Notes: generated from the sequence alone by a model not told the origin. 32,855 bases of DNA from a virus (IMGVR_UViG_3300020543_000019:1-32855); one strand, 5' to 3'. Positions 102 to 32,631 are shown, counted from the stretch's first letter. Made by a program: numbers and translations.

Positions 102-104
102 GAA

Positions 105-151
105 TCCCCTTTCAGCTATATACTAACTTCTAATACATACCCGAAAGAGGA
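105..151 (-). other. Long irregular RNA hairpin (21 bp, 5 G-U pairs, one G.G mismatch); candidate 3'-end, terminator or processing structure
   Basis: Minus strand UCCUCUUUCGGGUAUGUAUUAG-AAG-UUAGUAUAUAGCUGAAAGGGGA pairs almost fully; starts 11 nt after the stop of the 85-aa gene; no U-tract follows. Confidence 0.65.
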
Positions 152-162
152 CTAAGTTGAAG

Positions 163-420
163 TTAAGCTACAGGAGTTTCCATAGCCGCATACATCTCAT
201 CATCTTCTGAGTCAGCACTAACTTTACCCAACTTCTTACCTAACTGCAGTGCCACATCCGCGTAGCAGTTAAGTAACTTTTCAAACTCGACCTTAGCAGC
301 TGAGATAGCAACTGCTTGCTCTTCAACTGTACTATAACTAGCTAGGCAAGCCTTCATACTAATGTCGAAAAGGTCATTAACCTCCTTCGCAGTAGCTTCA
401 ACTGTATGTTTAATTTTCAT
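163..420 (-). CDS. Hypothetical protein, 85 aa, helical with acidic tail (cassette gene 3)
   Basis: GAGGG RBS before ATG; overlaps the upstream gene by 11 nt. Confidence 0.8.
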   Translation of the reverse strand: MKIKHTVEATAKEVNDLFDISMKACLASYSTVEEQAVAISAAKVEFEKLLNCYADVALQLGKKLGKVSADSEDDEMYAAMETPVA

Positions 421-793
421 AGAACCCTCGAAAGTAGGTGAAGAAAGTCTTTACAGCTGACTTTCCTTCCTCCGTCTGGAAATAAGTTGCTAATTTCTTG
501 TCAACTTGTTGTAGAATATCTGGTTTAGAGAGCCATTTCTGCTCTTCAACTGTCAAACACTGCCCTATAGCTTCCAACATAGTTAATTCTCGCGCTGGAA
601 CTACAGGAGGTTCGGGTTTAACTAGAGTTGAGTCCTTCAATAAGCTCATTTCTTCACGAATAACATCCCTAATTAAACTTTTTATGTCACTAGGACTGTC
701 ATTTATAGCTGGAACTGGTTGTTTAGCGACTAAACCTCCCACTACTTGCAGTTCTGCTATCCGTTTTTGTAACTCATCTATTGAAGAACTCAT
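410..793 (-). CDS. Hypothetical protein, 127 aa (cassette gene 2): N-terminal coiled coil, Pro-rich linkers, helical C-domain
   Basis: GAGGT RBS 4 nt before ATG; SIDELQKRIAELQ heptads. Confidence 0.85.
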   Translation of the reverse strand: MSSSIDELQKRIAELQVVGGLVAKQPVPAINDSPSDIKSLIRDVIREEMSLLKDSTLVKPEPPVVPARELTMLEAIGQCLTVEEQKWLSKPDILQQVDKKLATYFQTEEGKSAVKTFFTYFRGFYEN

Positions 794-837
794 CTTTACC
801 TCGATTTAGAACCTAAACTAACCAGACCATACCGATT

Positions 838-1692
838 TCAGCCATTAACTCTAGTGTTATTAGCTGTTTGCGAACCAGCTGAACCCGACATTGTTCCAAG
901 ATTAACCACAGATTGCGTGTTTCTCTGTAACTCACTAACAACTCCATTCAGAGCATTAACTACATACCCTAACTGTTGTTGTTGCTGTTGTTGGAGCTGA
1001 TTCTGATTGATGTTGTTAGTAACATTAACTCCACTATCAGCTACATGACGTTGAGTTCTCAAGTCCGCAATCTGATTGTTCAAATCAGTAACCATATTAG
1101 CTGTAATCAACGCTCTAGTTTTATCACCATCATTAGTGATTTCTCTAGTTACGTTATTAAACCCGTTAAGCATAGATACAGTAATACCATCTAACTGATT
1201 ACCAATTTGCTGAGTAGATTCATGCAACTCGTTAACAATAGTTCCAGTAGAAGTTGCTACTGAAGCCTTAATCTCGCCTTGTCCTTGGAGGTTTGCAATC
1301 TGAGCTTGTAGTTGTTGTACTAAAGCAGTCTGCGCGGTAGCATTAACTGTAGAGTTAATAGCATTTTCTGAAGCATTGATAGTTGAGATAACTTCTTGAG
1401 AACTATCTTGAATGTCTTTCAAGAGTAGCATAGCATTGTTATTAGCTTGATTAGCATTAGCTAGAGCAGCTGCAACTGCGGCATCAATAGCAGCATTTTG
1501 GCTGCCATTACCATTTAGGTCATTACCATTAGGATTAAATAGTAATCTACCTAATAAAGCTCCCATTACAAAGCCGCCACTACCATCATTACCGCCACCG
1601 AAGATGTTACCCATATTACCACCTGTAATTGCTGATTGAAAGAGATTGTTCAAGTCAATACCTGAACTTGTACTTGTAGAATCGACTGCCAT
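838..1692 (-). CDS. Gly-zipper, Q/N-rich coiled-coil protein, 284 aa (cassette gene 1)
   Basis: AGGAG RBS favours ATG at 1692 over the track start at 1716. GGFVMGALLGRLLF hydrophobic segment, long N/Q/A helical region, NNINQNQLQQQQQQQ tract. Confidence 0.88.
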   Translation of the reverse strand: MAVDSTSTSSGIDLNNLFQSAITGGNMGNIFGGGNDGSGGFVMGALLGRLLFNPNGNDLNGNGSQNAAIDAAVAAALANANQANNNAMLLLKDIQDSSQEVISTINASENAINSTVNATAQTALVQQLQAQIANLQGQGEIKASVATSTGTIVNELHESTQQIGNQLDGITVSMLNGFNNVTREITNDGDKTRALITANMVTDLNNQIADLRTQRHVADSGVNVTNNINQNQLQQQQQQQLGYVVNALNGVVSELQRNTQSVVNLGTMSGSAGSQTANNTRVNG

Positions 1693-1713
1693 AGTCAATC
1701 TCCTAGTTCTTCC

Positions 1714-1755
1714 CACTGTAATGCAGTGTCATTTCTGAGTAATAGCTACTCAAAA
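1714..1755 (-). promoter_or_regulatory. Two-hairpin 5' leader of the Q/N-rich gene
   Basis: UUUUGAGUA-GCUAU-UACUCAGAA (1733-1755) and CACUG-CAUUA-CAGUG (1714-1728), just upstream of the RBS. Confidence 0.4.
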
Positions 1756-1823
1756 CCTTTATCAGCAAGTTAAGTTTATAACTAAACTAAGTTAATTATA
1801 AAATTACCTTACTATTTATAGTT

Positions 1824-1852
1824 AGTGTACTCTTGTTTTGTTACAATTTCAA
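1824..1852 (-). promoter_or_regulatory. Putative sigma70-type promoter for the three-gene cassette
   Basis: TTGAAA-17 bp-TACACT in the intergenic gap; flanked by an 11/12 inverted repeat (1800-1811 / 1861-1872). Confidence 0.5.
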
Positions 1853-1871
1853 GACATATTTAAGGGAATTT

Positions 1872-1909
1872 TGCGCCAAGAATCCGACATTAGCCAGAAA
1901 CTTGACGCA
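1872..1909 (-). other. RNA hairpin at the end of the tail operon (15 bp, 3 G-U pairs, 2x2 U-U internal loop)
   Basis: UGCGUCAAG-UU-UCUGGC-UAAU-GUCGGA-UU-CUUGGCGCA, 6 nt after the stop of the 161-aa gene; no U-tract. Confidence 0.65.
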
Positions 1910-1915
1910 TAAACC

Positions 1916-2401
1916 TTACAAACTAGCTAAATAAGCTTTAAATCCATCTACAATACCTTCTATAGTTGCTAAATCAGTAGCTGAATCTATAGATGAAGTA
2001 GCTATGTTACTTTCAGCTCGTATATTATCTATCCAAAGGTTCATTTCTATAGTAGCTGGAGCTGTTGGCTCTCTATTGTAGTTTATCTGACGGTAAGTTG
2101 GGTATGCAGATAATATCTTAGCTCCAGAAAGCCTATTAACCTCATCTTTGTAGTCAGTCTTTGCAGTGTCAAGAATAGTTGGAGGGTCTTCCCATTGTTT
2201 AGTAGTCCAGTTGAACTCACTATATTGGTTTGGTCTATCTGTAATAAATTTAATTTCTCCATTCTCTATAAATTGAGTACTATCGTCAGCTTCTCCTTCT
2301 ATAAAATACTCATCTATACCTACATTACTAGTTATCAGCTCTTCTGGCATATTCAGAACTCTAAGTATTTTCCCATCAATGTTATAAATGATAGCATTCA
2401 T
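1916..2401 (-). CDS. Putative tail fibre assembly/chaperone-like protein (DUF4376-like)
   Basis: ATGA overlap with J; RPNQYSEFNWTTKQWED motif followed by a helical C-terminus, typical of post-fibre genes. Confidence 0.6.
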   Translation of the reverse strand: MNAIIYNIDGKILRVLNMPEELITSNVGIDEYFIEGEADDSTQFIENGEIKFITDRPNQYSEFNWTTKQWEDPPTILDTAKTDYKDEVNRLSGAKILSAYPTYRQINYNREPTAPATIEMNLWIDNIRAESNIATSSIDSATDLATIEGIVDGFKAYLASL

Positions 2402-5400
2402 CGTTTACATCCTACTACAGTAATAAAGGCATTTGAATAAATTAGCGTACATCCGCTAGGTTTTTGGTGTTTCATGTTAAATACGCAAGTACTATTTGCA
2501 GGTATTTGTAAAGTTAAAGTTGCGCTACCTGGAGCTGGTTGGTAGCTCATCTGCCCTCCTCCGCCATTAACTTGAAACCCGCTGTAAGCCCAAGTAGCAT
2601 TATACGGTATAGTTGTAGTTCCTGCAATTACTTGCTGTAGGGATACTTGTAAAAAGTTATCATATCTAGTAGTAGGACCTATAAATCTGATAGAGAACCC
2701 AAAAGTTACATTGACAGATAACGCATTTGGTAAATTATTAACATAAGTTAGGGATTGTATAGCTGGACTCCAAGTAGTACCAGTGTATGCTGTAGTATTA
2801 GTCACAGAAGTTGTAGTAAAAGCAGTACTAGGCACAGTAACAGCATTACCTTGAATCTTCAAAGTACTAACATTAGCATCAATAATCTGAGCAGTTCCAA
2901 TAGCTGCGCTGCCAATTTGAGTTTGCCCAATAGCAGCACTAGATATAAATGTACTTATGTTTCCGTTAGTAATCTCAGGAACTACCTTCTGCCAAGTTCC
3001 AGCTATTTTAACCCACATTAACATAGCAGTGTAATCAAAATAACTATCACCATTAACAGCTGCGCTTGGTACGTTAAACCCACTCATAGGTTGACCAGAA
3101 CCAGTATAACTAGTACCTGCGCCTGCAGGACCAGTTGGACCCTGTGGTCCAGTTGCACCTGGTAAACCTTGACTGCCTTGAGGGCCTTGAGGACCTTGCG
3201 CCCCAGGATTACCAGTAGGACCAGCTTTAGCTCTTGATATATTAAGTACTTTACTTATAGTAGCTCCACTATATACTGCATTTAGAGTATAAAAGACAGT
3301 ATCAGCCGCTAAAGCACCTGTAACACTATAAGCACCAGACGAATTTATACTGCAAGTTAAGCCGCTAAGCGTAGCAATAGATACTGAAAAACTGCAAAGG
3401 GAAGTTACATCTGTAGTTCCGCTAAAAACTTTAAAGTTACCAGCTGCAGGAGCATAACTAGAAACTACCCCACTACTATCTGCAGGTAATGTAGTAGTCT
3501 CATTAGTTAAGTACCCATTTAGTGCATTTTGCCCTTGAGGTCCTGTACTGCCTTGACTTCCTGTAGGTCCTTGAGGACCAGAAGACCCTTGAGGACCTTG
3601 AGGACCTTGACTACCATTAACACCATCGTACAATTTAAGAACAGTTATTTCGTCAAAAGTACCGCCAGAAGCGCATCTAACTCTTAGAGAAGCAGCTGTA
3701 AATGCAGTATTATTATAGGCTAAAGTGTAAGTTTGGTTAGTATTAGTACCGCTAAGAGAAACCCAAGTAGCTCCAGACCAATATTCCCAAGAATAAGTAG
3801 TTAAGCCACCGAATAAAGCGGCAGTTAAAGTTATATTTGCGACTGTAGGAGTAGATTGTCCAGATAAAAACTTAAATGCTTGTTCACCAGTAACTATAAC
3901 ATAAGTAGCCGCAGTTCCATCTTTAGCTAATAGACTTACAGCCGCCCATTCAGCACTTGTAATTACGTCTGTAGTTCCAGTTCCTAATGCAGTAGCTGTG
4001 GTTAGCCAGCGATAAGCTCCTGTAGTTGGTAAACTTCTTTTCCAAGGGTCTGGTTGTAGTCCTGTAGAAGTTACTAAAGCTCCATTAGAAAAAGTATAAG
4101 TTAAATCTACATTTGGCGGTGTAGGAGCTGCAGAAGTACTTGTAGTCTGGTATAAATAGATAGTAGCTGTGTTTATACCATTAGTTCCTGGAGTTCCAGG
4201 AGTTCCATCAGTACCATTCTTAGCTAACACAACTGGAGTTGCCCATTCATTAGCTTGAATAGTATCAGTATTTCCACCTCCAGAAGCAGTAGCAGCTGAA
4301 ACATATAGAGGGTCAGTGCCAACAGGTAATATATAAGACCAATTATTATCTAATCCAGTAACAACTGCAGAACTAAAAGTATAAGTTACTGGTTGTGTTG
4401 GTAGTGCAGGAGGATTAGCTCCAGCTAGTCTTCTATAAATATAAACCGTAGCAGTAGTTAAACCTGCAGGACCAGTTCCACCCTTAATAGTATATAATGC
4501 CCAGTAAGAGTTAGAAGTTATAGGATAAACTGGAGTTGATGCACTACCGCCCGAAGTGTGCGGAGTTACACAAGACCACCCATAGCCAAGTGCGTCCATA
4601 ACTATATCACCAACTACATAGCTATACCCACTAGACCAGTTACCTAAGAATACATTTCTAGTAGCTCCTACTTGAGGAACTCCAGGACCTTTAGCATTAT
4701 TCCAGTTAAAGTTACCGCCTGCAAAGATTACATTTCCACTAGTATCATAAAGTCCTAAAGACCCATAAGTATTAATATTACCAGTTTTATCTATACTCCA
4801 CCCTTTATAAGTAGTTGGGTTATAGTTTAAACTCATAATAGAGTTGCCAATTTTGGCGTTAGTAATAATACCATCAGTTATCTGAGCTGTTCCAGTAATA
4901 ACTGCATTTGTAGTATCTAAAAGACTTGCAACAATAGAACCAGCTTTAATCTCGGAAGCACCTACAGTTCCAGCTATAATCTGAGAACCAGAGATGAAAG
5001 CATTGCCATCCCCACCTTTAATATTACTAGCTGAACCTCCAGTATAAGTTGCAATAGGATAGCAACCAACTCCTACGGCAATAAGTAAAGTAGTAGTTAC
5101 TTGTAGAGCAGTTAAAGATACAGCTGGGTTAAAATAAACATAGACAAAACCAGAAGTCCAAGTTGTAGTTCCTGCTGTAATTGTATAAGTATTTGAGCCA
5201 TTTCTAATGACAGTCCCAGCAGTCCAGTTAAGTTTATTAGCAACTACAGAGTCAACTGTAAATTGAAGTCCAGTTTTAGTCCAAGTAGTCGCATCCGCAC
5301 TTAAAGGAGTTGAATTCTGCTCTCCAGAAACATTAAGTCCAGTCTTACTAAAGCTGTCATAAGCTGCAACTGCATAATAGTAAGTACTACTTGAAGGTAC

Positions 5401-8154
5401 ATTCAAAGTAATATAAGTATCTGGTCCGTCATAGACTAAAGTACTAGAATCTTTAGTAAAGTTAGCTGTTAAACTTCTAAATACTTGATAACCAGCTATA
5501 TCTGCTTCTGGAGTTGTTGTAATGTGCACAAATACAGAAGAAACACCAGATAGAATGTCAAAACTTTGCACTCCAGGAACTATATTAGCAGGATTAACCT
5601 CTACATAGTTAGATAAATCCCCTATAATATCTCTACTATAGACTTTAACAACAAAGTTTCTTTGCGGAGTTCCAAAGATAGTAAAGTTTTCATAAAAACT
5701 AAATACAAACTCACCGCCTTTGTCTTTATTAGGAACTACTGTATAAGTTCCTTTAACAGTTCTAGTTGCTGTATCAAGAACTTGAACTACATAGTCTTTT
5801 AAAGCATCTTCTTTAGTATCATTTACAGTATTATACATCCAAGATAGGTGTAAATCTGGTTGAGTAAATGCAACTCCCACTGTATTAGGCACTACAACAC
5901 TAGTAGGAGGCACTAAAGAGGACATAGCAGCTGCAACTCTATAGTTGTAAGGGTTTATTGTAGTTGTAACTATAGATTTAATCCCAGAGAAAGGATTAAC
6001 TGCCCAAACATAGACCTCATAAACACCTGGAAGTGGGTACTCAATGTCAAAGTTAGTTGTAGATAAGTCTTTTAACTGTACAAAGTCCTGTGCATCTCGT
6101 CTATAGCTCACTTCAAAGATAGCTTTAAAGTCATTTGTAGTACTTCCAGAACTCCAATCCCAAGAAATGTCTAACTTAGAGAACTCAACACCACGATTTA
6201 CTACATGAACTTGGTCGATAACTAAATTAGTAACTGCAGGTATGCTGAAGTTATCAAAGTTTACATAACTACCAGAAGTAGACGGCTTAACTATAGTCCC
6301 TGTAGAGTCAATATAGTTGTATTTGTCTTCATCATGGGTAAGTCCAGTTATAGTATAGACGTGAGAATCGTCTTTCTCAATCTTTAAAACTTTAATAACT
6401 CTAGGAGTTAAAGCAGCAGTCTTAAATAGAATAGTACTTCCAGTATAAGGGGAGTCAGTACCTACAAAAGTTATAGTAGAAAAAGACCCATTACTTTGAT
6501 TGATAGTTTTAGAGCTAAATGTAGTTCCGTCAGTTCCTATAAACTCAACTGAGTAACTTGCATTAGCTAAAGTGATTGTACGGTCTAAGACTATTGTAAC
6601 TTGTCCACCAGAGACTGAAGAACTTTTAATAATACCATGTTTAGCATTAGAGCTAACATTATCACTATCCATTACAGAGACTAGCTCTCCAATTTGGTAA
6701 TGCGCCCCTTGAAACAGTTGTTTAAAAGTAACTAAATCCCCGCTATAGCAGTTATTATATAAAGTCCAACGAGCTTTTCTTAGAGCTTGGTATTCACTTT
6801 TACAGCCTAAAAGAATAACATCTGAAGTTTGCAAACCATATCTAGTAATTAAAGAGTCTTCATAGTGAGTTACAGTATCACTATCTCCAAAAAAGTCTTC
6901 TCTAGCATAAGTTACATTGACTAAGTTAGTTCTACCTTCTAAGTCGTTAGAAGTATAGTCAAACATACCATCAACTACTGTAGCATTAGACACTACTTTA
7001 GTAATAGCTTGCCCTGCACCATCCCAGACAATCTTAATCTGCCCAAACGCATTAGAAGAGAAGTTAGCATTACCTAAAGTCAAAAGTTTCATTAAGAAAG
7101 TAGGCACATTCTCTCTTTCAATACACTGAAGATGAACTGTATATCTAGGTTCAGTAGTATTACCTGCTGGAACCATCTCATCGCAATGTTTAGCATAGGT
7201 ATAGAAGGAACCTAAGTCTATATCAGCAGCTGAAACTCCTAAACCCCAATCCTCATTTCTAAGTACCCAGTAAGTTACCCAAGCTAAGTTATCAGTATAT
7301 TCTGTGTAGGATTTAAAAGAACCATTCCAAGGAGTATTTTCGTTATAGTTTCTACCAGAAACTGTATAGTTAGAAGGTAATAAGAACTTCATACCTTTAA
7401 CTTTAAACTTCAACTCTGGAATAGATGTTCCAAAAGTTTTAGCATCGTAAATAGTTACGCCTAAAAGAGCAGTTTTTGGGTAAGTTAAAGTTCTTTCTGT
7501 AATAGTTATGATGTTAGCTAGAAAAGTTTTACTCATTAACTTATCTTCAGCATCATCAAGAGAAGTTCTAACTATTTTAATTTCCCAAGAATCTGCAAAT
7601 AAAGTTCCAGCTGGCTTATCAACTCTAACATCCCAAGCATAAACATTTGTACATTTACCTTTTTTAGTAACGGCAGCTGCTAATTGCCAGTTTTCTGTAG
7701 TACCATTAGCTAATTTTCTACGCTTATAAATATCTAAAGAAACTTGATAACCTACTCTATCTCCTTGGTCAGTTACTTGCATAAGTCTATCTATAGATAA
7801 AGTAACTCGTGCAGCATCATACTGACCTAAAAGGGTATAAACCTTTTCTACGTTATATTTTAACTCAATAGGAAAAGTACCAGAACCTGCAATAGGAGCT
7901 TCAACTTCAGAAAAACCTTTTATAATTTCTTGGTCTAGTGTACCAGTTCTTGTTTCCCAAGTAACTACATCAGCTGCATAATTAGAAATACTAGCACTAT
8001 TAACTAGAACATCACTAACAGAATCAATTTCACCTTCTGAAAGTGCAAAAAGCAATCTCATGGTTTGTTTTGATTTTAAAGTGTCTTTAGCTTCTACGGG
8101 TGTATGTCCGCCACCACCTTTTTCGCCATAAATATCTAAGTCTAGGTTTTCCAT
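2398..8154 (-). CDS. Tail tip attachment / central fibre protein (lambda gpJ-like) with extended C-terminal fibre
   Basis: N-terminus GGGGHTPVEAKDTLKSKQ resembles lambda J; LSEGEI, YPKTAL and YTDNLAW motifs; FN3-like domains; collagen repeats. Start at 8154 overlaps the gpI stop. Confidence 0.93.
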   Translation of the reverse strand: MENLDLDIYGEKGGGGHTPVEAKDTLKSKQTMRLLFALSEGEIDSVSDVLVNSASISNYAADVVTWETRTGTLDQEIIKGFSEVEAPIAGSGTFPIELKYNVEKVYTLLGQYDAARVTLSIDRLMQVTDQGDRVGYQVSLDIYKRRKLANGTTENWQLAAAVTKKGKCTNVYAWDVRVDKPAGTLFADSWEIKIVRTSLDDAEDKLMSKTFLANIITITERTLTYPKTALLGVTIYDAKTFGTSIPELKFKVKGMKFLLPSNYTVSGRNYNENTPWNGSFKSYTEYTDNLAWVTYWVLRNEDWGLGVSAADIDLGSFYTYAKHCDEMVPAGNTTEPRYTVHLQCIERENVPTFLMKLLTLGNANFSSNAFGQIKIVWDGAGQAITKVVSNATVVDGMFDYTSNDLEGRTNLVNVTYAREDFFGDSDTVTHYEDSLITRYGLQTSDVILLGCKSEYQALRKARWTLYNNCYSGDLVTFKQLFQGAHYQIGELVSVMDSDNVSSNAKHGIIKSSSVSGGQVTIVLDRTITLANASYSVEFIGTDGTTFSSKTINQSNGSFSTITFVGTDSPYTGSTILFKTAALTPRVIKVLKIEKDDSHVYTITGLTHDEDKYNYIDSTGTIVKPSTSGSYVNFDNFSIPAVTNLVIDQVHVVNRGVEFSKLDISWDWSSGSTTNDFKAIFEVSYRRDAQDFVQLKDLSTTNFDIEYPLPGVYEVYVWAVNPFSGIKSIVTTTINPYNYRVAAAMSSLVPPTSVVVPNTVGVAFTQPDLHLSWMYNTVNDTKEDALKDYVVQVLDTATRTVKGTYTVVPNKDKGGEFVFSFYENFTIFGTPQRNFVVKVYSRDIIGDLSNYVEVNPANIVPGVQSFDILSGVSSVFVHITTTPEADIAGYQVFRSLTANFTKDSSTLVYDGPDTYITLNVPSSSTYYYAVAAYDSFSKTGLNVSGEQNSTPLSADATTWTKTGLQFTVDSVVANKLNWTAGTVIRNGSNTYTITAGTTTWTSGFVYVYFNPAVSLTALQVTTTLLIAVGVGCYPIATYTGGSASNIKGGDGNAFISGSQIIAGTVGASEIKAGSIVASLLDTTNAVITGTAQITDGIITNAKIGNSIMSLNYNPTTYKGWSIDKTGNINTYGSLGLYDTSGNVIFAGGNFNWNNAKGPGVPQVGATRNVFLGNWSSGYSYVVGDIVMDALGYGWSCVTPHTSGGSASTPVYPITSNSYWALYTIKGGTGPAGLTTATVYIYRRLAGANPPALPTQPVTYTFSSAVVTGLDNNWSYILPVGTDPLYVSAATASGGGNTDTIQANEWATPVVLAKNGTDGTPGTPGTNGINTATIYLYQTTSTSAAPTPPNVDLTYTFSNGALVTSTGLQPDPWKRSLPTTGAYRWLTTATALGTGTTDVITSAEWAAVSLLAKDGTAATYVIVTGEQAFKFLSGQSTPTVANITLTAALFGGLTTYSWEYWSGATWVSLSGTNTNQTYTLAYNNTAFTAASLRVRCASGGTFDEITVLKLYDGVNGSQGPQGPQGSSGPQGPTGSQGSTGPQGQNALNGYLTNETTTLPADSSGVVSSYAPAAGNFKVFSGTTDVTSLCSFSVSIATLSGLTCSINSSGAYSVTGALAADTVFYTLNAVYSGATISKVLNISRAKAGPTGNPGAQGPQGPQGSQGLPGATGPQGPTGPAGAGTSYTGSGQPMSGFNVPSAAVNGDSYFDYTAMLMWVKIAGTWQKVVPEITNGNISTFISSAAIGQTQIGSAAIGTAQIIDANVSTLKIQGNAVTVPSTAFTTTSVTNTTAYTGTTWSPAIQSLTYVNNLPNALSVNVTFGFSIRFIGPTTRYDNFLQVSLQQVIAGTTTIPYNATWAYSGFQVNGGGGQMSYQPAPGSATLTLQIPANSTCVFNMKHQKPSGCTLIYSNAFITVVGCKR
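3120..3615 (-). repeat. Two collagen-like (Gly-X-Y)n tracts within J
   Basis: GSQGPQGPQGSSGPQGPTGSQGSTGPQG (about 3530-3615) and GPTGNPGAQGPQGPQGSQGLPGATGPQGPTGPAG (about 3120-3224). Confidence 0.9.
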
Positions 8155-8729
8155 TACACAGTTACCTCTTCTGAAAATAGTCCCGATGATATAAGTACTG
8201 CCCCACAATAAGGGTTACCAAAAATAAGTGGAACACTTCCACCTTGGTTTCTTACTATAGGTGCGCTATTAAATAAGTTAGATTCTTGTTGTTGTGATGA
8301 AGGGTCTTTACCAAATTCTGGTGTTGGCGAAATAGCTGACATAATAGCTGAAACTGCCATACTAACTGCGATTAAAACTACAAGAGTTACAGCATAAGCA
8401 ATAGCGGTTGCAGCTGCTCCAGTAGCTCCTAAAGCAGCTGCCGCAGATACTCCTAGAGATATAGGTTCTTCCCCTTCAATTTCTTTTATAATATATAAAT
8501 CAGTAAAACCTTCAAAACTAGAAAAGATAACTTCTGGGGTTAAAGCTATCATATTTTCATAATCTTTTTCATTAGCTAAAATAAACTTATGCTCTTCTTT
8601 AATTAAACTAGATACAAACTCTTCTCCCTTTTGCAGCTGCATAAGAGATAGAACTTCTTTTAAAGAATCAGCATGAAACTCAAAACTTTCAGTATCAGCT
8701 CCAATAACAATAACTTTAATCTTTGACAT
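8154..8729 (-). CDS. Tail assembly protein (lambda gpI-like)
   Basis: Lies between K and J; Ala/Gly hydrophobic middle; SNLF...QGGSVPLIFG C-terminal motif. Confidence 0.85.
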   Translation of the reverse strand: MSKIKVIVIGADTESFEFHADSLKEVLSLMQLQKGEEFVSSLIKEEHKFILANEKDYENMIALTPEVIFSSFEGFTDLYIIKEIEGEEPISLGVSAAAALGATGAAATAIAYAVTLVVLIAVSMAVSAIMSAISPTPEFGKDPSSQQQESNLFNSAPIVRNQGGSVPLIFGNPYCGAVLISSGLFSEEVTV

Positions 8730-14380: not shown

Positions 14381-14747
14381 TATCTTCTGCCTTATCAACA
14401 ATAATATCTAAATACCCAGAATGGATATAGGGAATCAACTGTAAAGTTCTCTCTACAGGCATACATTTATCTTTAACTAAAGCTAAAAGAACTACTGTAT
14501 CTATTGCATAGTACTCAGAAAGATAGTTAGTAAGAGTTCTATAAACAGTAACTATCTCCTCTAAGCTTTCCCAGAGGTAGAAGTAAACTTCTTCATCTTC
14601 CTCTATTTCACTAGATTCTTCAAAAGCGAGAGATTGAAAAGCAGCTTTAAAGTCATCCTCAACTTTTTTAGCTTTAGCTAGTTTGTGAGATTGTGAACTC
14701 TCTAAAGCTGCTCTTCCTAGAAACTCTCCCGCTTCTATTAGTTTTTT
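14346..14747 (-). CDS. -1 frameshift extension of the tail assembly chaperone (gpGT, DUF1799-like); absent from the ORF track
   Basis: Slippery A-AAA-AAC at 14741-14747 directly before the G stop; the -1 frame is open for 131 codons (LIEAGEFLGRAAL...YLWESLEEIVTVY...DINP*). Confidence 0.85.
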   Translation of the reverse strand, partial: KKLIEAGEFLGRAALESSQSHKLAKAKKVEDDFKAAFQSLAFEESSEIEEDEEVYFYLWESLEEIVTVYRTLTNYLSEYYAIDTVVLLALVKDKCMPVERTLQLIPYIHSGYLDIIVDKAEDNGRPDNQDINP

Positions 14748-25877: not shown

Positions 25878-26237
25878 ATGACTGCCGTTAAACTTAATCT
25901 TCCTCCTATAGAAAAAGGCGCAACTTATTCTCATGTTGTGTACTGGAGAGCCGCAGATAAAACTACAGCAATCAACCTCACAAACTGCACAGCTAAAATG
26001 CAAATCCGCCCTACAGTTGACAGCTCAGTTCTTCTTGGAGAACTAAGTACTGCAAATGGGAGAATAATCATTACAGGTTCTACTGGAAAGATTGAATTAG
26101 CTATTCCAAGTACAGATACAACTGGGCTTGTAGCTACTAAAGATGCAGTTTACGACCTTGAGGTCTATTACCCAGCTAAAACAGTCCGCTTGATTGAAGG
26201 TAAAGTAACTATTAAAGAGGAGGTTACTCGTGGCTGA
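25878..26237 (+). CDS. Beta-sandwich fibre adaptor/collar protein (BppU N-terminal / T5 p132-like)
   Basis: IEKGAT, INLTNCTAKMQIR, GKIELAI, AVYDLEV and RLIEGKVTI pattern; precedes the fibre gene. Confidence 0.65.
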   Translation: MTAVKLNLPPIEKGATYSHVVYWRAADKTTAINLTNCTAKMQIRPTVDSSVLLGELSTANGRIIITGSTGKIELAIPSTDTTGLVATKDAVYDLEVYYPAKTVRLIEGKVTIKEEVTRG

Positions 26238-29127
26238 TACTATAGTAGTTAATGAGATTGTAGATAGTATTGTAATTGCAGTTGGAGGAGAACAAGGACC
26301 TCCAGGAATTAGTGACTTTAATCCTGCTCTTAGTTTTGTAGGAGATGTTACAGGTTCTGGGACTACAGGACAAGCTGTTACTACCTCTCTTGCAAATACT
26401 CAAGTTGCTTCTGGAAGTTATGGTTCTCCAAGTAAAACAGTAACTTTTACAGTAGACTCTAAAGGTCGTCTGCAAGCTGCAGGTGAAAGTGTAATTCTTT
26501 TAGACGCTCTTTCGGTTATTTCTGGTGTCTTTCAGACAGATAGAATGCCAGCTTTTTCTGGAGATGCTTCAACTGTTGCAGGTAATACTGTTTTAACTCT
26601 AGCTAGTACTGGAGTTAATGCTGGAAGTTATACAAAAGTAACTGTAGATGAAAAAGGTCGAGTTATAGGCGGAACTAACCCAGCTACTCTCGGAACTATG
26701 GGCATTATTGATGCTTATACTAAGGCTGAAGTTGACGCAGCTGTTTCAAGTGCTACTCCAAGTTTTGAAACTTTGACTGGCAAACCAAGTACGCTTGCAG
26801 GTTATGGGATTATAGACGGAGTTAGTACAACTCAGTTTGGAGTTTCTATTGCAACTCTTGGAAATAACGGTAAAGTTCCTCCTAGCCAGTTACCTTCTTA
26901 TATAGATACTGTTGTTGAATATCCTTTAGCTTCTAGTTTCCCAAGTACAGGTGTTAGTGGAACTATCTATATAGATACATCTACTAAGAATAGTTATAGA
27001 TGGTCTGGTACAGGATATGTGAATGTAGGAACAGCTGGTGGTTCTGTTTCTATGGATTTCATTAATATCCTTGGCAAGCCAACTACTTTATCTGGTTATG
27101 GAATTCTTGACGCAGTTAATTCAGTTCTTGTAGGAGCTAATTCTGGTTTAGCTACTTTAGGACCTAATGGAAAGTTAACTACTTCTCAAATGCCAGCTGC
27201 TGTTGACCAGATTCAAGAGATTGGAACTTTTAACGACCTTCCTGTAAATGGTTTAACTTCAACTATCTATCTTGTTCTCGATACTAATAAGATTTATAGA
27301 TTTTCTGGTTCAGCTTATGTAGAGATTAGCTCTGCAGGTACTTCTGATGATACTTTAAAACTTCATACAGCTAGAACTATAGGAATGACTGGAGATGTTA
27401 CTTGGACTTCTGGGGTTTTTGACGGTTCAGCTAATGTTACTGGAGTTTCAAGCTTAAAAACCTCTGGAGTTACCGCTGGAACTTATACTAAAGTTATTGT
27501 AAATGATAAAGGTATTGTAACTTCGGCTAGTATGCCTACTACTTTAGCTGATTTAGGAGTTACTAATGGGGTTATTACCTCAGATGTGGGAACTAATGTT
27601 GCCCCTCTTGTTGGCGGTAAAGTTCCTTCTGTAAACTTACCTTCCTATGTAGATGATGTATTAGAGTTTGCAACTTTAGCCGACTTTCCAACTCAAGGTG
27701 AAGCTGGTAAGATTTATATAGCTACAACTACAAACCTAAGTTATCGTTGGGCAACTTCAGTTTATGTTCAAATCAGTTCAGCAGGCGGAGTTGTATCTGT
27801 AGCTGCTTTAAACATAACTACTAACGGGAATGATGTAAGTTCTACAGTTGCTAATCAGACAACAGCTCCTGTAATTACTTTAAATCTGCCTACAGCTAAT
27901 GCTACTTCTCGTGGAGCGTTGAGTGCAACAGACTGGTCAACTTTTAATGCTAAACAGGCAGCTCTAGTATCTGGCACTTCCATAAAAACTATCAATGGAA
28001 CTAGTCTTTTAGGTTCTGGAGATATAGTTATAACTGCCGGAGCTGGTTCTTTTGCAGACCTTACTGGAAAACCTACTACAATTTCTGGTTATGGTATAAC
28101 TAACGCTTATACTAAAACTGAAATAGATACTTCTTTAGGTTTAAAAGCAAATTCAGCTACAACTTACACAAAAACTGAAGTAGATACTGCTATATCTAAT
28201 GCAACTCCTTCTTTTGCTACTTTAACGGGCAAACCGACTACTATTAGTGGATATGGGATTACAGATGCTCAAGCAGTTTTAGTTTCTGGAACAAATATTA
28301 AGACCATAAACGGAACTTCTATACTTGGTTCTGGAGATATAGTTATTTCTGGAGGTGGAGGTGGCTCTGGTACAGTTACTTTAGTATCTGGAACTGCACC
28401 TATTACAGTTACAAATGGAGGTACTACTCCTACAATTAGTATTTCACAAGCTTCTAGTACCGTAAATGGTTATTTAAGCTCAACTGATTGGTCTACTTTT
28501 AATGGAAAACAAGCTGCTTTAGGTTTCACTCCTTACAACGCTACTAACCCTTCTGGTTATACTTCTAACTTAGGAACTGTTACTTCAGTTTCTGGCACAG
28601 GCACTGTTAGCGGATTAACTTTAACAGGAAGTGTGACTTCAAGTGGTAGTTTAACTCTTGGTGGTACTTTAGCTGTTAGTTTAGAAAGTATTAGTGGATT
28701 TGGAAGTGGTGTAAGTACTTTCTTAGCCACACCTTCTAGTGCTAATTTATTAGCATCTATGAGTGATGAAACTGGCAGTGGGTTGTTGGTATTTGGGACA
28801 ACTCCTACTATTACTGGACTTAGAGAAGTATCTGCTGCTTTAGCCGCTAACAATATTGATGTGGCTTCTGGAAACTATTTTACAAAAACTATCACAGGGG
28901 CTACCACATTTACAGTTAGTAATGTACCAACAACTGCGACAGTAGCTAGTTTTGTATTAGAACTTACAAATGGAGGTTCTAGTGCTATTACTTGGTGGGC
29001 AGGTGTTAAGTGGGCATCTGGTACAGCTCCAGTACTAACTACAGCAGGTAGGGATTTACTTGGTTTTATCACTAAAGATGGTGGTACTACTTGGGATGGT
29101 TTAGTTATGTCAAAGGACCAGAAATAA
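26230..29127 (+). CDS. Long fibre protein, 965 aa, built from repeated modules
   Basis: G.Y.KVTVD.KGRV x3, GKP.TL.GYGI x4, GK...SQ/NLP...D...E...IY.....YR x3, LVSGT.IKTINGTS.LGSGDI x2; G/S/T-rich; GTG start. Confidence 0.88.
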   Translation: MADTIVVNEIVDSIVIAVGGEQGPPGISDFNPALSFVGDVTGSGTTGQAVTTSLANTQVASGSYGSPSKTVTFTVDSKGRLQAAGESVILLDALSVISGVFQTDRMPAFSGDASTVAGNTVLTLASTGVNAGSYTKVTVDEKGRVIGGTNPATLGTMGIIDAYTKAEVDAAVSSATPSFETLTGKPSTLAGYGIIDGVSTTQFGVSIATLGNNGKVPPSQLPSYIDTVVEYPLASSFPSTGVSGTIYIDTSTKNSYRWSGTGYVNVGTAGGSVSMDFINILGKPTTLSGYGILDAVNSVLVGANSGLATLGPNGKLTTSQMPAAVDQIQEIGTFNDLPVNGLTSTIYLVLDTNKIYRFSGSAYVEISSAGTSDDTLKLHTARTIGMTGDVTWTSGVFDGSANVTGVSSLKTSGVTAGTYTKVIVNDKGIVTSASMPTTLADLGVTNGVITSDVGTNVAPLVGGKVPSVNLPSYVDDVLEFATLADFPTQGEAGKIYIATTTNLSYRWATSVYVQISSAGGVVSVAALNITTNGNDVSSTVANQTTAPVITLNLPTANATSRGALSATDWSTFNAKQAALVSGTSIKTINGTSLLGSGDIVITAGAGSFADLTGKPTTISGYGITNAYTKTEIDTSLGLKANSATTYTKTEVDTAISNATPSFATLTGKPTTISGYGITDAQAVLVSGTNIKTINGTSILGSGDIVISGGGGGSGTVTLVSGTAPITVTNGGTTPTISISQASSTVNGYLSSTDWSTFNGKQAALGFTPYNATNPSGYTSNLGTVTSVSGTGTVSGLTLTGSVTSSGSLTLGGTLAVSLESISGFGSGVSTFLATPSSANLLASMSDETGSGLLVFGTTPTITGLREVSAALAANNIDVASGNYFTKTITGATTFTVSNVPTTATVASFVLELTNGGSSAITWWAGVKWASGTAPVLTTAGRDLLGFITKDGGTTWDGLVMSKDQK

Positions 29128-31517
29128 TGAGCTTACGAACTATGATTAAAACTGCTGGTGGGTATGTTACTAGATATATTGGAATGATTTCTGCTATTAG
29201 TAATACTCCTGCTCAAATATCTGGTATCGAGACTAACGTATCTGGAGATTTATTTGTCTTTGCTACTTATTATATCAACAATGCTAGTTGTCAAGCAGTT
29301 TTACTTAAATTTAGCTCAAATGGAGTATTACTATGGAAAAAAACAATATCTGGTTTAACTAAAAGCGCAAATATAACAATAGATACTCTTGGGAATGTAT
29401 ATCTTTTAGGACATCGAACAGTTGCTGCTGGGACAAGTAGAATATCTTCTTTTCTTGTAAAAGTTGACACAGACGGAAACATACTATGGCAAAAGAAAGA
29501 AACATCAGCTAATACTTTCTATTATACTAGACTATCTACTGATAGTAGCGGTAATATTTATACAATAGGTAGCTATAATAACTTAACGGGACAATCACTT
29601 CCAGTTTCTATAATAGTTAGTAAATATACATCAGTAGGTGATTTAGTTTTTCAATCAGCTTATAAATTGTCTGATACAACAACAACTGACGGTTTTGGTA
29701 TTTGTACTGATTCCAGCGGTAATATTTATATTACAGGGTCTACTAGTACTACTGGCTCTACTTCTGGTTATATAATAAAATTAGATTTAGCAGGTGCATT
29801 ATTATGGAAAAAATCTCTTGGTTTTGTGGGAACTATATTATGCGCTATAACATCAACTAATGAAGTTTGCGTAAGTAATGGCACAATTATTGCTAAATTA
29901 GATAGTTCTGGTAATTATATTTGGCAAAAATCTAATTCAAATGGTGAAGCAAAATGTAGTGATTTATATATAGATAGTTTAGATAATATTTATATGGCTG
30001 TTTATAATTCATTAGGAGCAACTGGAGAGGGTACTAGAATTTTTAAATATGCTACAGACGGCACTCAAAATTTTCAAAGACTATTAAATTCATCCGCACC
30101 TACTACTTATCCAGTAAGTCTAGCAGTAGATAAATTAGGAAGTTTATTTATAGGGGATTATCTTTCTACGGCTGGTGCTTATTTGTTTATATTCAAATTA
30201 ACTTCAAGCGGTAGTTTAACTGGGACTTATACTATAGGAACACAATCAAGAGTTTATTCTGTAAATACAGGTGCAGTAGAAACAATACCAACTTTAACTA
30301 CATCAACTAATTCTTTAATTCGTCTTGTTAGTTATCCTAGTAATTTTAAGTTAACACATACAGCGGCTGTTTACCGTACATACATGGATAGTTCGGGTAA
30401 TATCTACAAGGCAAGTTATAATTTACTTGTTAAATTAAATTCAACTGGAGCTATAGTTTGGCGCAAAACTATAACTGGGCTAGTCTCAAGTCAACCGCAA
30501 ATAATTGTAGATAATACATCTGGGACTATATATTTTGCAGGTAAAATAACAAGTGGTATTGGAGTAATAGCTTTTGATAGTGCTGGAGCTATTTTATGGC
30601 AGAAACAGATAGCAGGTGTTACTGGTAGTAGTGTTATAGGTATTGATTTTAACAATGTGGATTTGTATATAAGTTGCATTATAACCAGTAATGGTTCTAG
30701 TCTGGTTAAATGTTCTACTATAGATGGTGCAGTTGCTTGGGCAAGACAAGTAGGTAGTACACTTTATGGTAATTTAAAAGCTGTAAGTGATGGAGTGTAT
30801 TTCTGCGGAATGCAATCAATTTCTGGATTTCAACATGGATGGTTTGGTAAATATGGCTCTGCAGGTACTAGAACACTTTCTATGTCTATAACTAGTGTCT
30901 CTGCTGGACCAGATAATTGCTATGGTATTACTGTAGATAGTACTGGTAATATTTATATTGCAACCCAAATAGTTTATACAGGAACTACTTACTATAGTAC
31001 AATTTTTAAATGCAATAGTGCTGGTACTAGACTCTGGCAAACATCTATTGGTAATAGCGTAAATGGATTTAAAGCACTTGTATTAGATTCTTCTGATAAT
31101 GTTTATGCTACTGGGGATGGTATTTTATGTAAAATTAACTCGGCAGGGGTATTTCAGTGGGCATATACTGGCATGAGTTGTGATAGGTTGTCTTTAGATT
31201 CTTTTGGTAATATATGTACTTCTATTTCGGTTAGTAATACAACTAGTTGGAAATTACCTACAGAACAGTTATTAGGAACTTTAGGTGGTGCTACTTTTAC
31301 ATCAAGGGCACAAAGTAGTAATGCTACAACCTCTACTATAGCTTCCGTTAGTCCAACTAGCACAGTTATAACACCTACTGTGACAACTGGTACTTTCTCA
31401 ATAGCAGACGATACAACAACAACTTTTACAAAGACAGGTATGGGATTTACTACATCTAGTACTGAAACTTTTGCCCCTAGTACAGCTCCAAGTACAGTAA
31501 CAATGAAGGTATTTTAA
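29127..31517 (+). CDS. Putative receptor-binding protein with two beta-propeller (SBBP-like) regions, about 796 aa
   Basis: Recurrent DSSGNIY and K...G...W.K blades in two blocks; S/T-rich tail; TAATG coupling supports start at 29127. Confidence 0.72.
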   Translation: MSLRTMIKTAGGYVTRYIGMISAISNTPAQISGIETNVSGDLFVFATYYINNASCQAVLLKFSSNGVLLWKKTISGLTKSANITIDTLGNVYLLGHRTVAAGTSRISSFLVKVDTDGNILWQKKETSANTFYYTRLSTDSSGNIYTIGSYNNLTGQSLPVSIIVSKYTSVGDLVFQSAYKLSDTTTTDGFGICTDSSGNIYITGSTSTTGSTSGYIIKLDLAGALLWKKSLGFVGTILCAITSTNEVCVSNGTIIAKLDSSGNYIWQKSNSNGEAKCSDLYIDSLDNIYMAVYNSLGATGEGTRIFKYATDGTQNFQRLLNSSAPTTYPVSLAVDKLGSLFIGDYLSTAGAYLFIFKLTSSGSLTGTYTIGTQSRVYSVNTGAVETIPTLTTSTNSLIRLVSYPSNFKLTHTAAVYRTYMDSSGNIYKASYNLLVKLNSTGAIVWRKTITGLVSSQPQIIVDNTSGTIYFAGKITSGIGVIAFDSAGAILWQKQIAGVTGSSVIGIDFNNVDLYISCIITSNGSSLVKCSTIDGAVAWARQVGSTLYGNLKAVSDGVYFCGMQSISGFQHGWFGKYGSAGTRTLSMSITSVSAGPDNCYGITVDSTGNIYIATQIVYTGTTYYSTIFKCNSAGTRLWQTSIGNSVNGFKALVLDSSDNVYATGDGILCKINSAGVFQWAYTGMSCDRLSLDSFGNICTSISVSNTTSWKLPTEQLLGTLGGATFTSRAQSSNATTSTIASVSPTSTVITPTVTTGTFSIADDTTTTFTKTGMGFTTSSTETFAPSTAPSTVTMKVF

Positions 31518-31519
31518 TT

Positions 31520-31972
31520 ATGCAATTAGCTATTATAAAAAATGGAACTATTAAAACGATAGACGAAGATTCAATTCTATTTCCTAATACATCTTTTCCT
31601 ATGAACTTTGTAGATGAAGACTTTCTAGTGGCTAACTCTGCTATGCAAGTTATACGCTGGGAAATGTTTGATAGTTCACTAGAGAAATCTATAGATACTG
31701 AACCATATATAAAAAATGGAAAGGTTTATACTTTTAGAATAGAACCTAAATCAGAAACTGACTTAGCAGAAGAAACTAACCAAGCTCGTCTATCCAAAGA
31801 AAATGAAGTCAGAACTGAGCGAAATAACTTACTACTAGCTTCAGACTGGACTCAAGTAGCTGATGCACCTGTAGATAAGACTGCATGGGCAGCTTATAGG
31901 CAAGACCTTAGAGATATAACATCTCAAGAAGGTTTTCCATTTAACGTAGTCTTCCCTAACCCTCCTTTATAG
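31520..31972 (+). CDS. Tail fibre assembly chaperone
   Basis: RN.LL.ASDWTQ..DAP.D...W..YRQ.LRDI..Q.GFP..V.FP..P signature. Confidence 0.88.
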   Translation: MQLAIIKNGTIKTIDEDSILFPNTSFPMNFVDEDFLVANSAMQVIRWEMFDSSLEKSIDTEPYIKNGKVYTFRIEPKSETDLAEETNQARLSKENEVRTERNNLLLASDWTQVADAPVDKTAWAAYRQDLRDITSQEGFPFNVVFPNPPL

Positions 31973-32147: not shown

Positions 32148-32399
32148 ATGGACTTTCTAAACTTTGTAACTGAAGTAGGATTTCCAATAGCAGCTGCTTG
32201 CGTGGGGATGTATTTTGTCTTCCTCACGCAGAAGTTTATCCTAGATTCTGTACTTGAGAAGGTTAAAAGTCTAATAGCTATTATAAAACAGCTCGACCTG
32301 CGGGTCAGCTCTATGTCACAGGACATTTTGAAGATAGATAAACTACTTTCGACAGCTTTAGAACTTCCAAAAGAAGAGGATAAGCCTAATGGACCTTAA
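32148..32399 (+). CDS. Single-TM membrane protein with GFPI motif (YvrJ-like; holin candidate 1)
   Basis: VGFPIAAACVGMYFVF TM segment followed by coiled coil; upstream of the endolysin. Confidence 0.6.
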   Translation: MDFLNFVTEVGFPIAAACVGMYFVFLTQKFILDSVLEKVKSLIAIIKQLDLRVSSMSQDILKIDKLLSTALELPKEEDKPNGP

Positions 32400-32631
32400 A
32401 GAGCTTGCTAACTATATAAATCAGTATGGTTTTCCTATAATAGCTGCCGGGGGGATGGGTTATATTGTCTACTTTGTGTGGATTTGGACTACAACTATGG
32501 TCAAGCCGATACTAGAGGAAGCTTATATAGTTCTTGTAGAGCTGATTGACCAGATTAGAGTCCTAGATAATGATATGATACGGTTGGAACAGAAACTTAA
32601 AACTATTTTACTCTTGAGAGGTAAGAAATGA
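32389..32631 (+). CDS. Single-TM membrane protein with GFPI motif (paralog; holin candidate 2)
   Basis: YGFPIIAAGGMGYIVYFVW TM segment, coiled coil, basic C-terminus; ATGA overlap with the endolysin. Confidence 0.6.
   Translation: MDLKELANYINQYGFPIIAAGGMGYIVYFVWIWTTTMVKPILEEAYIVLVELIDQIRVLDNDMIRLEQKLKTILLLRGKK

What the first reader, a model, noticed from the sequence alone, without database searches (positions are those of the whole stretch)
105..1909. Self-contained three-gene cassette built around a Q/N-rich, Gly-zipper coiled-coil protein: best candidate for an undescribed system
Seen: three co-oriented unknown genes (284, 127, 85 aa), each with a good RBS, plus their own promoter candidate, a structured leader of about 125 nt and a long hairpin on each side. 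It looks like an insulated transcription unit rather than part of the tail operon. Gene 1 runs Gly-rich hydrophobic segment, long N/Q/A heptad region, GDKTRALI, then poly-Q/N. From memory (unverified), a similar Gly-rich coiled-coil gene followed by a partner with SID...LQ, LT.E.Q..L and EEGK motifs occurs in very distant phages without a known function. Inference: a membrane-inserting or self-polymerising protein with two dedicated partners, possibly for superinfection exclusion, anti-defence or host envelope remodelling.
Basis: partly seen in the sequence, partly recalled or inferred. Interest (0 to 1): 0.8.

Follow-up and report, generated by a model that had tools for sequence, protein, structure and literature searches.

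The report
Mobile phage helical-rod gene cassette
Three real, linked genes at the end of a phage's tail region form an add-on unit shared by unrelated phages; it is predicted to build a roughly 29-nm self-assembling protein rod with a dedicated helper, likely acting at the infected cell's membrane, and no study of it was found.

Summary
The three ORFs (284, 127, 85 aa), promoter-like site, structured leader and flanking hairpins are real. All 20 near-clade viral loci with downstream DNA keep the three genes in order, in unrelated phage backbones. Gene 1 belongs to a wide, unnamed phage family (207 viral loci; phiPLPE gp38, FL-1, At2). It is a Cys-free, likely distant relative of T5.077; gene 2 links weakly to T5.078. 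Its helix is not a plain heptad: indels come in phase-keeping steps of 4, 7 and 11, pointing to one continuous variable-length coiled coil. The Gly-rich segment is too weak for a normal transmembrane helix; there is no signal peptide. Of 83 loci, 51 carry a gene-2-type partner, 26 collagen-like genes, 15 gene 3. Insulation is only partly supported: hairpins lack U-tracts, and several relatives lack the promoter and leader. RNA-library contigs from one sample cover the cassette. Best reading: a dispensable late, virion-independent rod, likely membrane-tethered, with gene 2 as chaperone or adaptor (0.4). Binding could not be tested. This scan reported related Cys-rich cassettes before on other DNA.

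The parts
1873..1908 (-). Hairpin just downstream of the last tail gene (stop at 1916); no U-tract in the sense direction. In L006, L013, L014 and L015 a T-run follows it on the opposite strand
1824..1852 (-). sigma70-like promoter candidate TTGAAA-17-TACACT (9/12), hexamers conserved in 9 of 9 close relatives
1693..1817 (-). About 125-nt leader with three hairpins (about 1764-1813, 1734-1756, 1714-1728). The first starts just after the predicted +1; the RBS lies outside the three hairpins; no Rfam match
838..1692 (-). Gene 1, 284 aa: Gly-rich weakly hydrophobic segment (res ~30-55), predicted continuous helix 63-219, second helix 224-262 with N/Q run, conserved C-terminal VNLGTM..QTA.NT.V tail; N+Q 25%, no Cys, net charge -10
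410..793 (-). Gene 2, 127 aa: two N-terminal helices plus a conserved ~55-aa four-helix C-terminal domain (LT.EEQ.WLS...F.T..GK), the usual partner of gene 1
163..420 (-). Gene 3, 85 aa, start overlapping the end of gene 2; found only in the near lineage and always together with gene 2
104..153 (-). Long (~22 bp) hairpin after gene 3, with G-U/A-U and compensatory variation; no U-tract

Best explanation
This is a portable accessory phage operon, likely dispensable and late-expressed, whose gene 1 is predicted to self-assemble into a variable-length coiled-coil rod (about 29 nm here) that likely tethers to the cytoplasmic face of the inner membrane through its Gly-rich segment, with gene 2 likely acting as its dedicated chaperone or adaptor. 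Shown: linkage, order, mobility between unrelated phage backbones, phase-keeping indels, no signal peptide, optional collagen-like or acidic genes inserted behind gene 1. Inferred: oligomerisation; higher-order packing (the face opposite the hydrophobic seam is small-residue rich, not charged); membrane contact; gene 1-gene 2 binding; gene 3 as a lineage-specific helper; collagen-like subunits as exchangeable tips, absent here. The most likely job, inferred only, is to modify the envelope of the infected cell late in infection (blocking further infection or tuning lysis), independent of the virion type.
For: Co-occurrence: 20 of 20 near-clade viral loci with downstream DNA carry genes 2 and 3 in order; 4 of 24 end too early. 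L020, L022 and L023-L025 were not in the seed profiles and their gene 2 scores E 6e-10 to 3e-19. Upstream contexts differ: lambda-like tail, endolysin, primase. In 83 non-redundant loci a gene-2 domain follows in 41, a T5.078-like partner in 10, never both and never upstream; in 3 loci the partner lies on the opposite strand. Rod: AF2 helix 63-219 at pLDDT mostly >90. Of 124 distinct motif-to-motif distances, 118 are 0 or 7 mod 11, and the nine lengths seen at least twice are 66, 70, 73, 77, 84, 88, 95, 99 and 106 (62 of 124 are one length and relatives are not independent). The A/G/S/T face lies roughly opposite the hydrophobic face, with little charge. The middle of gene 1 is swapped in L013/L015 (21-23% identity against 65-76% at the ends; genes 2 and 3 are 66-84%). 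No lipobox in 0 of 120 homologues, and N-termini are acidic. Hosts of cultured carriers: Iodobacter, Acinetobacter, Flavobacterium, Pararheinheimera, Dickeya. T5.077 and T5.078 are 'Not Fit' in a T5 knock-down screen (PMC11879866, supplement file 7). RNA-library contigs of a ~96-97% identical relative cover 168-1673, with capsid contigs at 99% identity in the same runs (one sample).
Against: The Gly-rich segment is weak (KD19 0.77 here; at least 1.6 in only 9 of 68 and 8 of 28 homologues), so membrane anchoring is unproven. Gene 1 has no detected partner in 13 of 83 loci (12 after one by-eye correction). Frequent position beside tail-fibre genes and the collagen-like partners fit a virion fibre equally well. 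The T5 screen called only 17 of 162 genes Fit, so 'Not Fit' is weak, and the link to T5.077 is distant. RNA contigs cannot show strand, start or level. No functional data were found for any member.
Confidence: 0.4

Rival explanations
1. Accessory virion fibre or whisker: gene 1 is a trimeric stalk attached to the particle, gene 2 its folding chaperone, and collagen/beta-domain genes are adhesive tips.
For: Lies right after tail-fibre genes in the window clade, phiPLPE (annotated 'putative tail-fiber'), At2 and the Lelliottia remnant. 26 of 83 loci carry collagen-like genes; one partner hits T4 gp9/10 weakly (E 3e-4). Variable length and a swapped middle. Low-charge N/Q/T/A composition.
Against: Carried by unrelated phage backbones and sometimes among replication genes (KLER1-1). 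In phiPLPE, gp34 and gp35 are flagged MS-confirmed but gp38 is not (weak, as gp36 is unflagged too). It has its own promoter candidate in this lineage, and T5.077 sits apart from the structural genes behind promoter P12.
Confidence: 0.25
2. Self-polymerising matrix or inclusion: the rods pack side by side into a lattice or fibre bundle that coats or aggregates progeny or lysis debris.
For: Small-residue face opposite the hydrophobic seam and about 11% charged residues; conserved poly-Q/N; collagen-like and Dps/ferritin genes in the cassette of one clade.
Against: No precedent for tailed phages known to me (recalled); no direct evidence of polymer; the conserved hydrophobic Gly segment is not explained.
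Confidence: 0.13
3. Anti-defence or host-takeover factor: gene 1 acts as a coiled-coil decoy or scaffold that binds a host defence or division protein; genes 2 and 3 regulate it.
For: Accessory, mobile, own promoter candidate, cytoplasmic; its likely T5 relatives are 'Not Fit' in a lab host.
Against: Late-region position next to tail and lysis genes. The same motifs are kept in phages of very different hosts. The only PADLOC hit at E < 0.01 is a generic coiled-coil match to LmuB, E 7e-4. Collagen partners make little sense.
Confidence: 0.12
4. DNA-pilot or ejection tube like phiX174 H: a packaged Q/N-rich helix forms an envelope-spanning barrel.
For: Same architecture class: Q/N-rich helix with 7- and 11-residue repeats, long enough to span the wall (PMC7354561 passages).
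Against: No sequence match to H in Pfam or PDB sequences. N/Q are not concentrated on one face (amplitude 0.025-0.047 against 0.09-0.10 for hydrophobics). Net charge -10. The phage has a tape measure protein, and the gene is optional.
Confidence: 0.07

Closest known systems
T5.077-T5.078(-T5.079) unit of Escherichia phage T5 (PHROG 8119, 7894), function unknown
   Same: Own promoter (P12) and closing hairpin/terminator; Gly-rich hydrophobic segment followed by a long Q/N/A helix; small helical partner directly behind. T5.077 beats 300 of 300 local shuffles with 3 of 4 gene-1 profiles, and 299 of 300 with the fourth. Type-B partners of gene 1 match T5.078 (E 2e-8; PHROG 7894 E 3e-6).
   Different: Gene 1 has no Cys-Cys-Cys and carries DGDKTRALI, poly-Q and a conserved C-tail that T5.077 lacks; the alignment covers mainly the N-terminal half. 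Window gene 2 links to T5.078 only weakly (hhalign probability 3 directly; 44.5 between type A and B profiles against at most 2.6 in 40 shuffles). Gene 3 is unrelated to the Cys-rich third gene of T5.
Iodobacter phage phiPLPE gp38-gp39 (gp38 annotated 'putative tail-fiber protein'); also Acinetobacter phage At2, Flavobacterium phage FL-1, KLER1-1 gp74; PHROG 9288
   Same: Clear gene-1 homologues (profile E 4e-67 for gp38); gp39 is the bare gene-2 C-terminal domain (E 4e-21) (both helped neither nor tested function, and gp39 was among the rows of the iterated profile).
   Different: No gene 3. The tail-fibre label is an annotation without an MS flag in the record. FL-1 and KLER1-1 show no gene-2 partner.
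phiX174 DNA pilot protein H
   Same: Q/N-rich long helix mixing heptads and hendecads (PMC7354561).
   Different: No homology found; N/Q not confined to one face; optional gene in phages that have a tape measure protein.
Trimeric phage fibre and autotransporter stalks with polar core layers (P22 gp26, fibritin, UspA1, reovirus sigma1)
   Same: Long low-charge coiled coil rich in N/Q/T; UspA1 and sigma1 appear among generic structural neighbours (Z 7.5-7.8).
   Different: Z values are at the level of any long helix (top 8.3, NudEL); no specific match; oligomer state untested.

Membership tests
T5.077/T5.078-like cassette (uncharacterised) | Gene 1 homologous to T5.077 | tested here: inconclusive
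   hhalign probability 91-94 on the Gly segment and up to 112 columns; beats local shuffles for 3 of 4 profiles; compositional bias is high
T5.077/T5.078-like cassette (uncharacterised) | Small helical partner homologous to T5.078 directly downstream | tested here: inconclusive
   Met for type-B loci (E 2e-8); for window-type A only weak (profile P 2e-4; T5.078 ranks first among non-members at E 0.42)
T5.077/T5.078-like cassette (uncharacterised) | Cys-Cys-Cys motif in the rod and Cys-rich third peptide | tested here: not met
   No Cys in gene 1; 64 of 68 near homologues have none; gene 3 is unlike the T5 peptide
phiPLPE gp38 / PHROG 9288-like family (uncharacterised) | Gly segment + DI motif + DG[DE]KTRxLI + N.NQ..QQQ + VNLGTM tail | tested here: met
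   (PHROG 9288 E 8e-6)
Microvirus DNA pilot protein H | Sequence homology | tested here: not met
   No Pfam hit to E 1 and no PDB sequence hit
Microvirus DNA pilot protein H | Amide-lined decameric tube | tested here: inconclusive
   N/Q weakly polarised on the helix; no oligomer model could be run
Phage tail fibre or whisker | Presence in virions | not testable with these tools
   phiPLPE record has no MS flag on gp38; weak
Phage tail fibre or whisker | Homotrimeric coiled coil | not testable with these tools
Spanin, holin or membrane-bound superinfection exclusion proteins | Canonical transmembrane helix or lipoprotein signal | tested here: not met
   KD19 maximum 0.77; lipobox in 0 of 120 homologues
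Known defence or annotated bacterial families | Profile match above cut-off (Pfam, NCBIfam, PADLOC) | tested here: not met

The most novel reading that the evidence does not exclude
Tailed phages of many unrelated groups encode a virion-independent, self-polymerising structural system: a length-tunable coiled-coil rod with a chaperone and plug-in collagen tips that builds a lattice or fibre coat in or on the infected cell and persists after lysis, protecting, aggregating or anchoring progeny much as occlusion bodies do for insect viruses.
Probability: 0.13. Interest if true: 0.88.

Novelty: new variant of a known kind. Interest (0 to 1): 0.52.

Why it matters
One of the more widespread unexplained phage accessory modules now has a defined anatomy: a rod whose length changes only in helix-phase steps, a conserved ~55-aa partner domain, and optional collagen-like tips. 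It also has cultured carriers (phiPLPE, At2, FL-1, KLER1-1, and more distantly T5), so the question becomes directly testable by deletion, virion proteomics and expression. If it is a virion-independent assembly acting on the envelope, it would be a new kind of phage late function. If it is a virion whisker, it would be a fibre that can dock on unrelated particle types.

Tried and rejected
Family libraries: no Pfam, NCBIfam or PADLOC match above cut-off for genes 1-3; PHROGs gave only 9288 (unknown function) and a weak 36217 for gene 1. PDB sequence searches with profiles of all three genes gave nothing below E 0.01. Fold searches: gene 1 returns only generic long helices; gene 2 gave nothing with E <= 0.001 or Z >= 5; gene 3 was not folded. 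These absences do not show that the folds are new. ESM Atlas: gene 1 hits unnamed, mostly viral clusters (0.94-0.95); gene 2 no usable hit. Rfam on 1-2000: one chance-level hit. FL-1's small downstream ORF looked like gene 3 by eye but scores E 0.74-0.93 or worse once left out of the profile: rejected. A first loose collagen filter over-called and was replaced; the strict one misses L076. RNA contigs do not cover 1674-3100 and most of the tail fibre, but tail fibres vary among relatives and holes in contigs prove nothing, so this is not used as evidence for a separate transcript. The NxxQD calcium motif (PMC13580157, section 3.1) was considered and not pursued. GTDB exact-motif scan: 5 stretches, 3 true family members; one exact motif only, so no census. 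Paper searches found no study of the family: T5.077, 0 papers in main texts; 3 listings, not read. Most subscription papers, including the original phiPLPE and T5 proteomics papers, are not in the library; four supplementary files of PMC11879866 were not searched.

Full report
Setting. The window is a 32.9-kb virus record of a lambda-like siphophage: terminase, portal, protease, decoration, capsid, tape measure, minor tail proteins and a J-type fibre on the minus strand (PHROG hits). The cassette follows the last tail gene (stop at 1916) and ends near the left edge.

Observation. The three ORFs, their lengths and ribosome-binding sites are as described, and rough pN/pS against six relatives is below 1 for each. 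The promoter candidate is no better than chance alone, but both hexamers are kept in 9 of 9 close relatives, and the first leader hairpin starts just after the predicted +1. Both flanking hairpins fold better than shuffles (z -3.5 for 1685-1920, -3.2 for 60-175) and show compensatory and G-U changes (few, close sequences). Neither has a sense-strand U-tract, although the phage has a normal terminator at 15235-15214. They read better as RNA end-stabilisers or processing sites than as intrinsic terminators (inference). In L009 and L010 gene 1 directly follows the upstream gene, and L017 and L020-L022 do not show the window's promoter and leader (by eye), so insulation is lineage-specific at best.

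Distribution. Gene 1 has 293 homologues in one search and 132 representatives at 50% clustering. A motif scan confirmed 207 viral loci, of which the best 80 were returned. Of 24 near-clade viral loci, 20 extend far enough, and all 20 carry genes 2 and 3 in order, behind tail fibres, an endolysin or a primase. I then counted 83 non-redundant loci: 103 had a complete gene 1, and 20 were dropped as duplicates or for under 700 nt downstream; the T5 locus was left out. The gene-2 C-terminal domain (type A) follows in 41 (15 with gene 3, 7 with collagen-like genes, 2 with both). A T5.078-like partner (type B) follows in 10, collagen-like genes alone in 19, and nothing recognised in 13 (L076 is collagen-type by eye). 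A and B never co-occur and are interleaved on a quick gene-1 tree. The partner never lies upstream, and in three loci it lies on the opposite strand. Cultured carriers are phiPLPE, At2, FL-1, KLER1-1 and a truncated copy in Sucellus. In GTDB an exact-motif scan gave 5 stretches, 3 real: two enterobacterial copies with a type-A partner and one MAG contig with a collagen partner.

Gene 1 anatomy. AF2 gives one helix 63-219 and a second 224-262 (mean pLDDT 76, pTM 0.31), about 29 nm at 1.5 A per residue. The hydrophobic period is 3.63. Across 124 distinct homologue segments, the distance between the DI and DGDKTR motifs takes values such as 66, 70, 73, 77, 84, 88, 95, 99 and 106; 118 are 0 or 7 mod 11 (half are one length and kin are not independent). 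The next interval takes 39, 46, 50 or 53 in all but one case. Length therefore changes only in phase-keeping steps, as expected for one continuous coiled coil of mixed heptads and hendecads. The face opposite the hydrophobic seam is A/G/S/T-rich and charges are few, which suggests packing beyond a soluble bundle (inference). The Gly-rich segment is conserved but weakly hydrophobic, and no lipobox occurs in 120 homologues. In L013 and L015 the middle of gene 1 is 21-23% identical while its ends are 65-76% and genes 2-3 are 66-84% identical, so the middle is exchanged. Near relatives L016, L017, L020-L023 insert an acidic or collagen-like gene after gene 1. Two of these share a D-D-x-x-I motif with the collagen partners of the distant clade (short motif, suggestive only). 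The window has no such gene.

Genes 2 and 3. Gene 2 is modelled as two free helices plus a confident four-helix C-domain, with no fold match. phiPLPE gp39 consists of that domain alone. Gene 3 occurs in 22 loci (duplicates included), all near-clade and all with gene 2.

Relation to T5. An earlier scan note pointed to T5.077-079. T5.077 scores above all 300 local shuffles with three of four gene-1 profiles. T5.078 matches the type-B partner profile (E 2e-8) and type A weakly. I treat this as a probable distant relationship, not proven membership: the Cys-Cys-Cys motif and the Cys-rich third peptide are absent here. T5.077 and T5.078 were 'Not Fit' in CRISPRi-ART (PMC11879866: passages and supplement file 7 rows seen), a screen that called only 17 of 162 T5 genes Fit.

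Expression. Three RNA-library runs from one freshwater sample hold contigs covering 168-1673 at about 96-97% identity, one of them spanning genes 1 to 3 (371-1673). The same runs hold capsid and major-tail-region contigs at 98-99%. This fits expression during infection by a close relative, but contigs show neither strand, start nor level, and DNA carry-over is not excluded.

Mechanism. The simplest account is a portable late operon making a self-assembling rod with a dedicated small partner and optional tips. Because it moves between unrelated phage backbones, sometimes sits away from structural genes, and keeps a hydrophobic Gly segment, I favour a virion-independent rod at the inner membrane that alters the envelope of the infected cell (0.4). 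Rivals are an accessory virion fibre (0.25), a matrix or inclusion (0.13), an anti-defence scaffold (0.12) and an H-like DNA tube (0.07; H features from PMC7354561, abstract and passages). For coiled-coil background I saw the abstract and section 3.1 of PMC13580157 and passages of PMC4786415; what I saw does not treat this family.

Verdict. Real and conserved; a Cys-free, three-gene variant of a widespread, annotated but unstudied kind of phage cassette. Seven paper searches found no study of it, within a library that lacks most subscription papers. Interest 0.52.

Noticed in passing
window 32148-32399 and 32389-32631 (+): Two tandem paralogues of PHROG 18771 (unknown function), E 3e-21 and 2e-23.
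   Followed up: no
window 25878-31972 (+): A second fibre-like cluster (965-aa and 808-aa ORFs, tail-fibre assembly genes) transcribed away from the head-tail operon.
   Followed up: no
L002 5970-6743; similar ORFs in L006 5604-6362 and L016 5183-5872: A plasmid-type Rep3 initiator (Pfam E 1e-27 for L002) lies just downstream of the cassette in close relatives, hinting at a phage-plasmid-like replication mode.
   Followed up: partly
L033 4831-5049, L042 4260-4442, L053 4358-4546: The gene-2 domain lies on the strand opposite to gene 1.
   Followed up: partly
L074 3695-5460, also L073, L076, L082, L090, L100: In one clade gene 1 heads a run of collagen-like and small beta-domain genes plus a Dps/ferritin-like gene (Pfam Ferritin E 2e-15 for L074); in L098 and L105 the gene-2 domain closes that run.
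   Followed up: partly
L128 3278-4306 (Buttiauxella brennerae), L129 3308-4781 (Lelliottia wanjuensis): Gene 1 + gene 2 pair kept in what look like small prophage remnants in enterobacterial chromosomes; the Buttiauxella gene 1 ORF is short (201 aa).
   Followed up: partly
L133 3285-3650 (Dickeya phage Sucellus): Truncated gene 1 homologue (121 aa, N-terminal part only) without a partner.
   Followed up: partly
L127 (uncultured Aquiluna MAG contig): Contig with gene 1 + collagen partner looks phage-like by gene content and may be misbinned; not tested.
   Followed up: no
window 1916-8208 against L002, L003, L006, L007, L013-L015: The tail-fibre end and its assembly gene differ strongly among relatives whose cassette leader and genes are nearly identical; the cassette borders a recombination hot spot.
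   Followed up: no
window 14401-14738: Gap between the tape measure gene and the 147-aa ORF, where lambda-like phages have a frameshifted tail chaperone (recalled); not checked.
   Followed up: no
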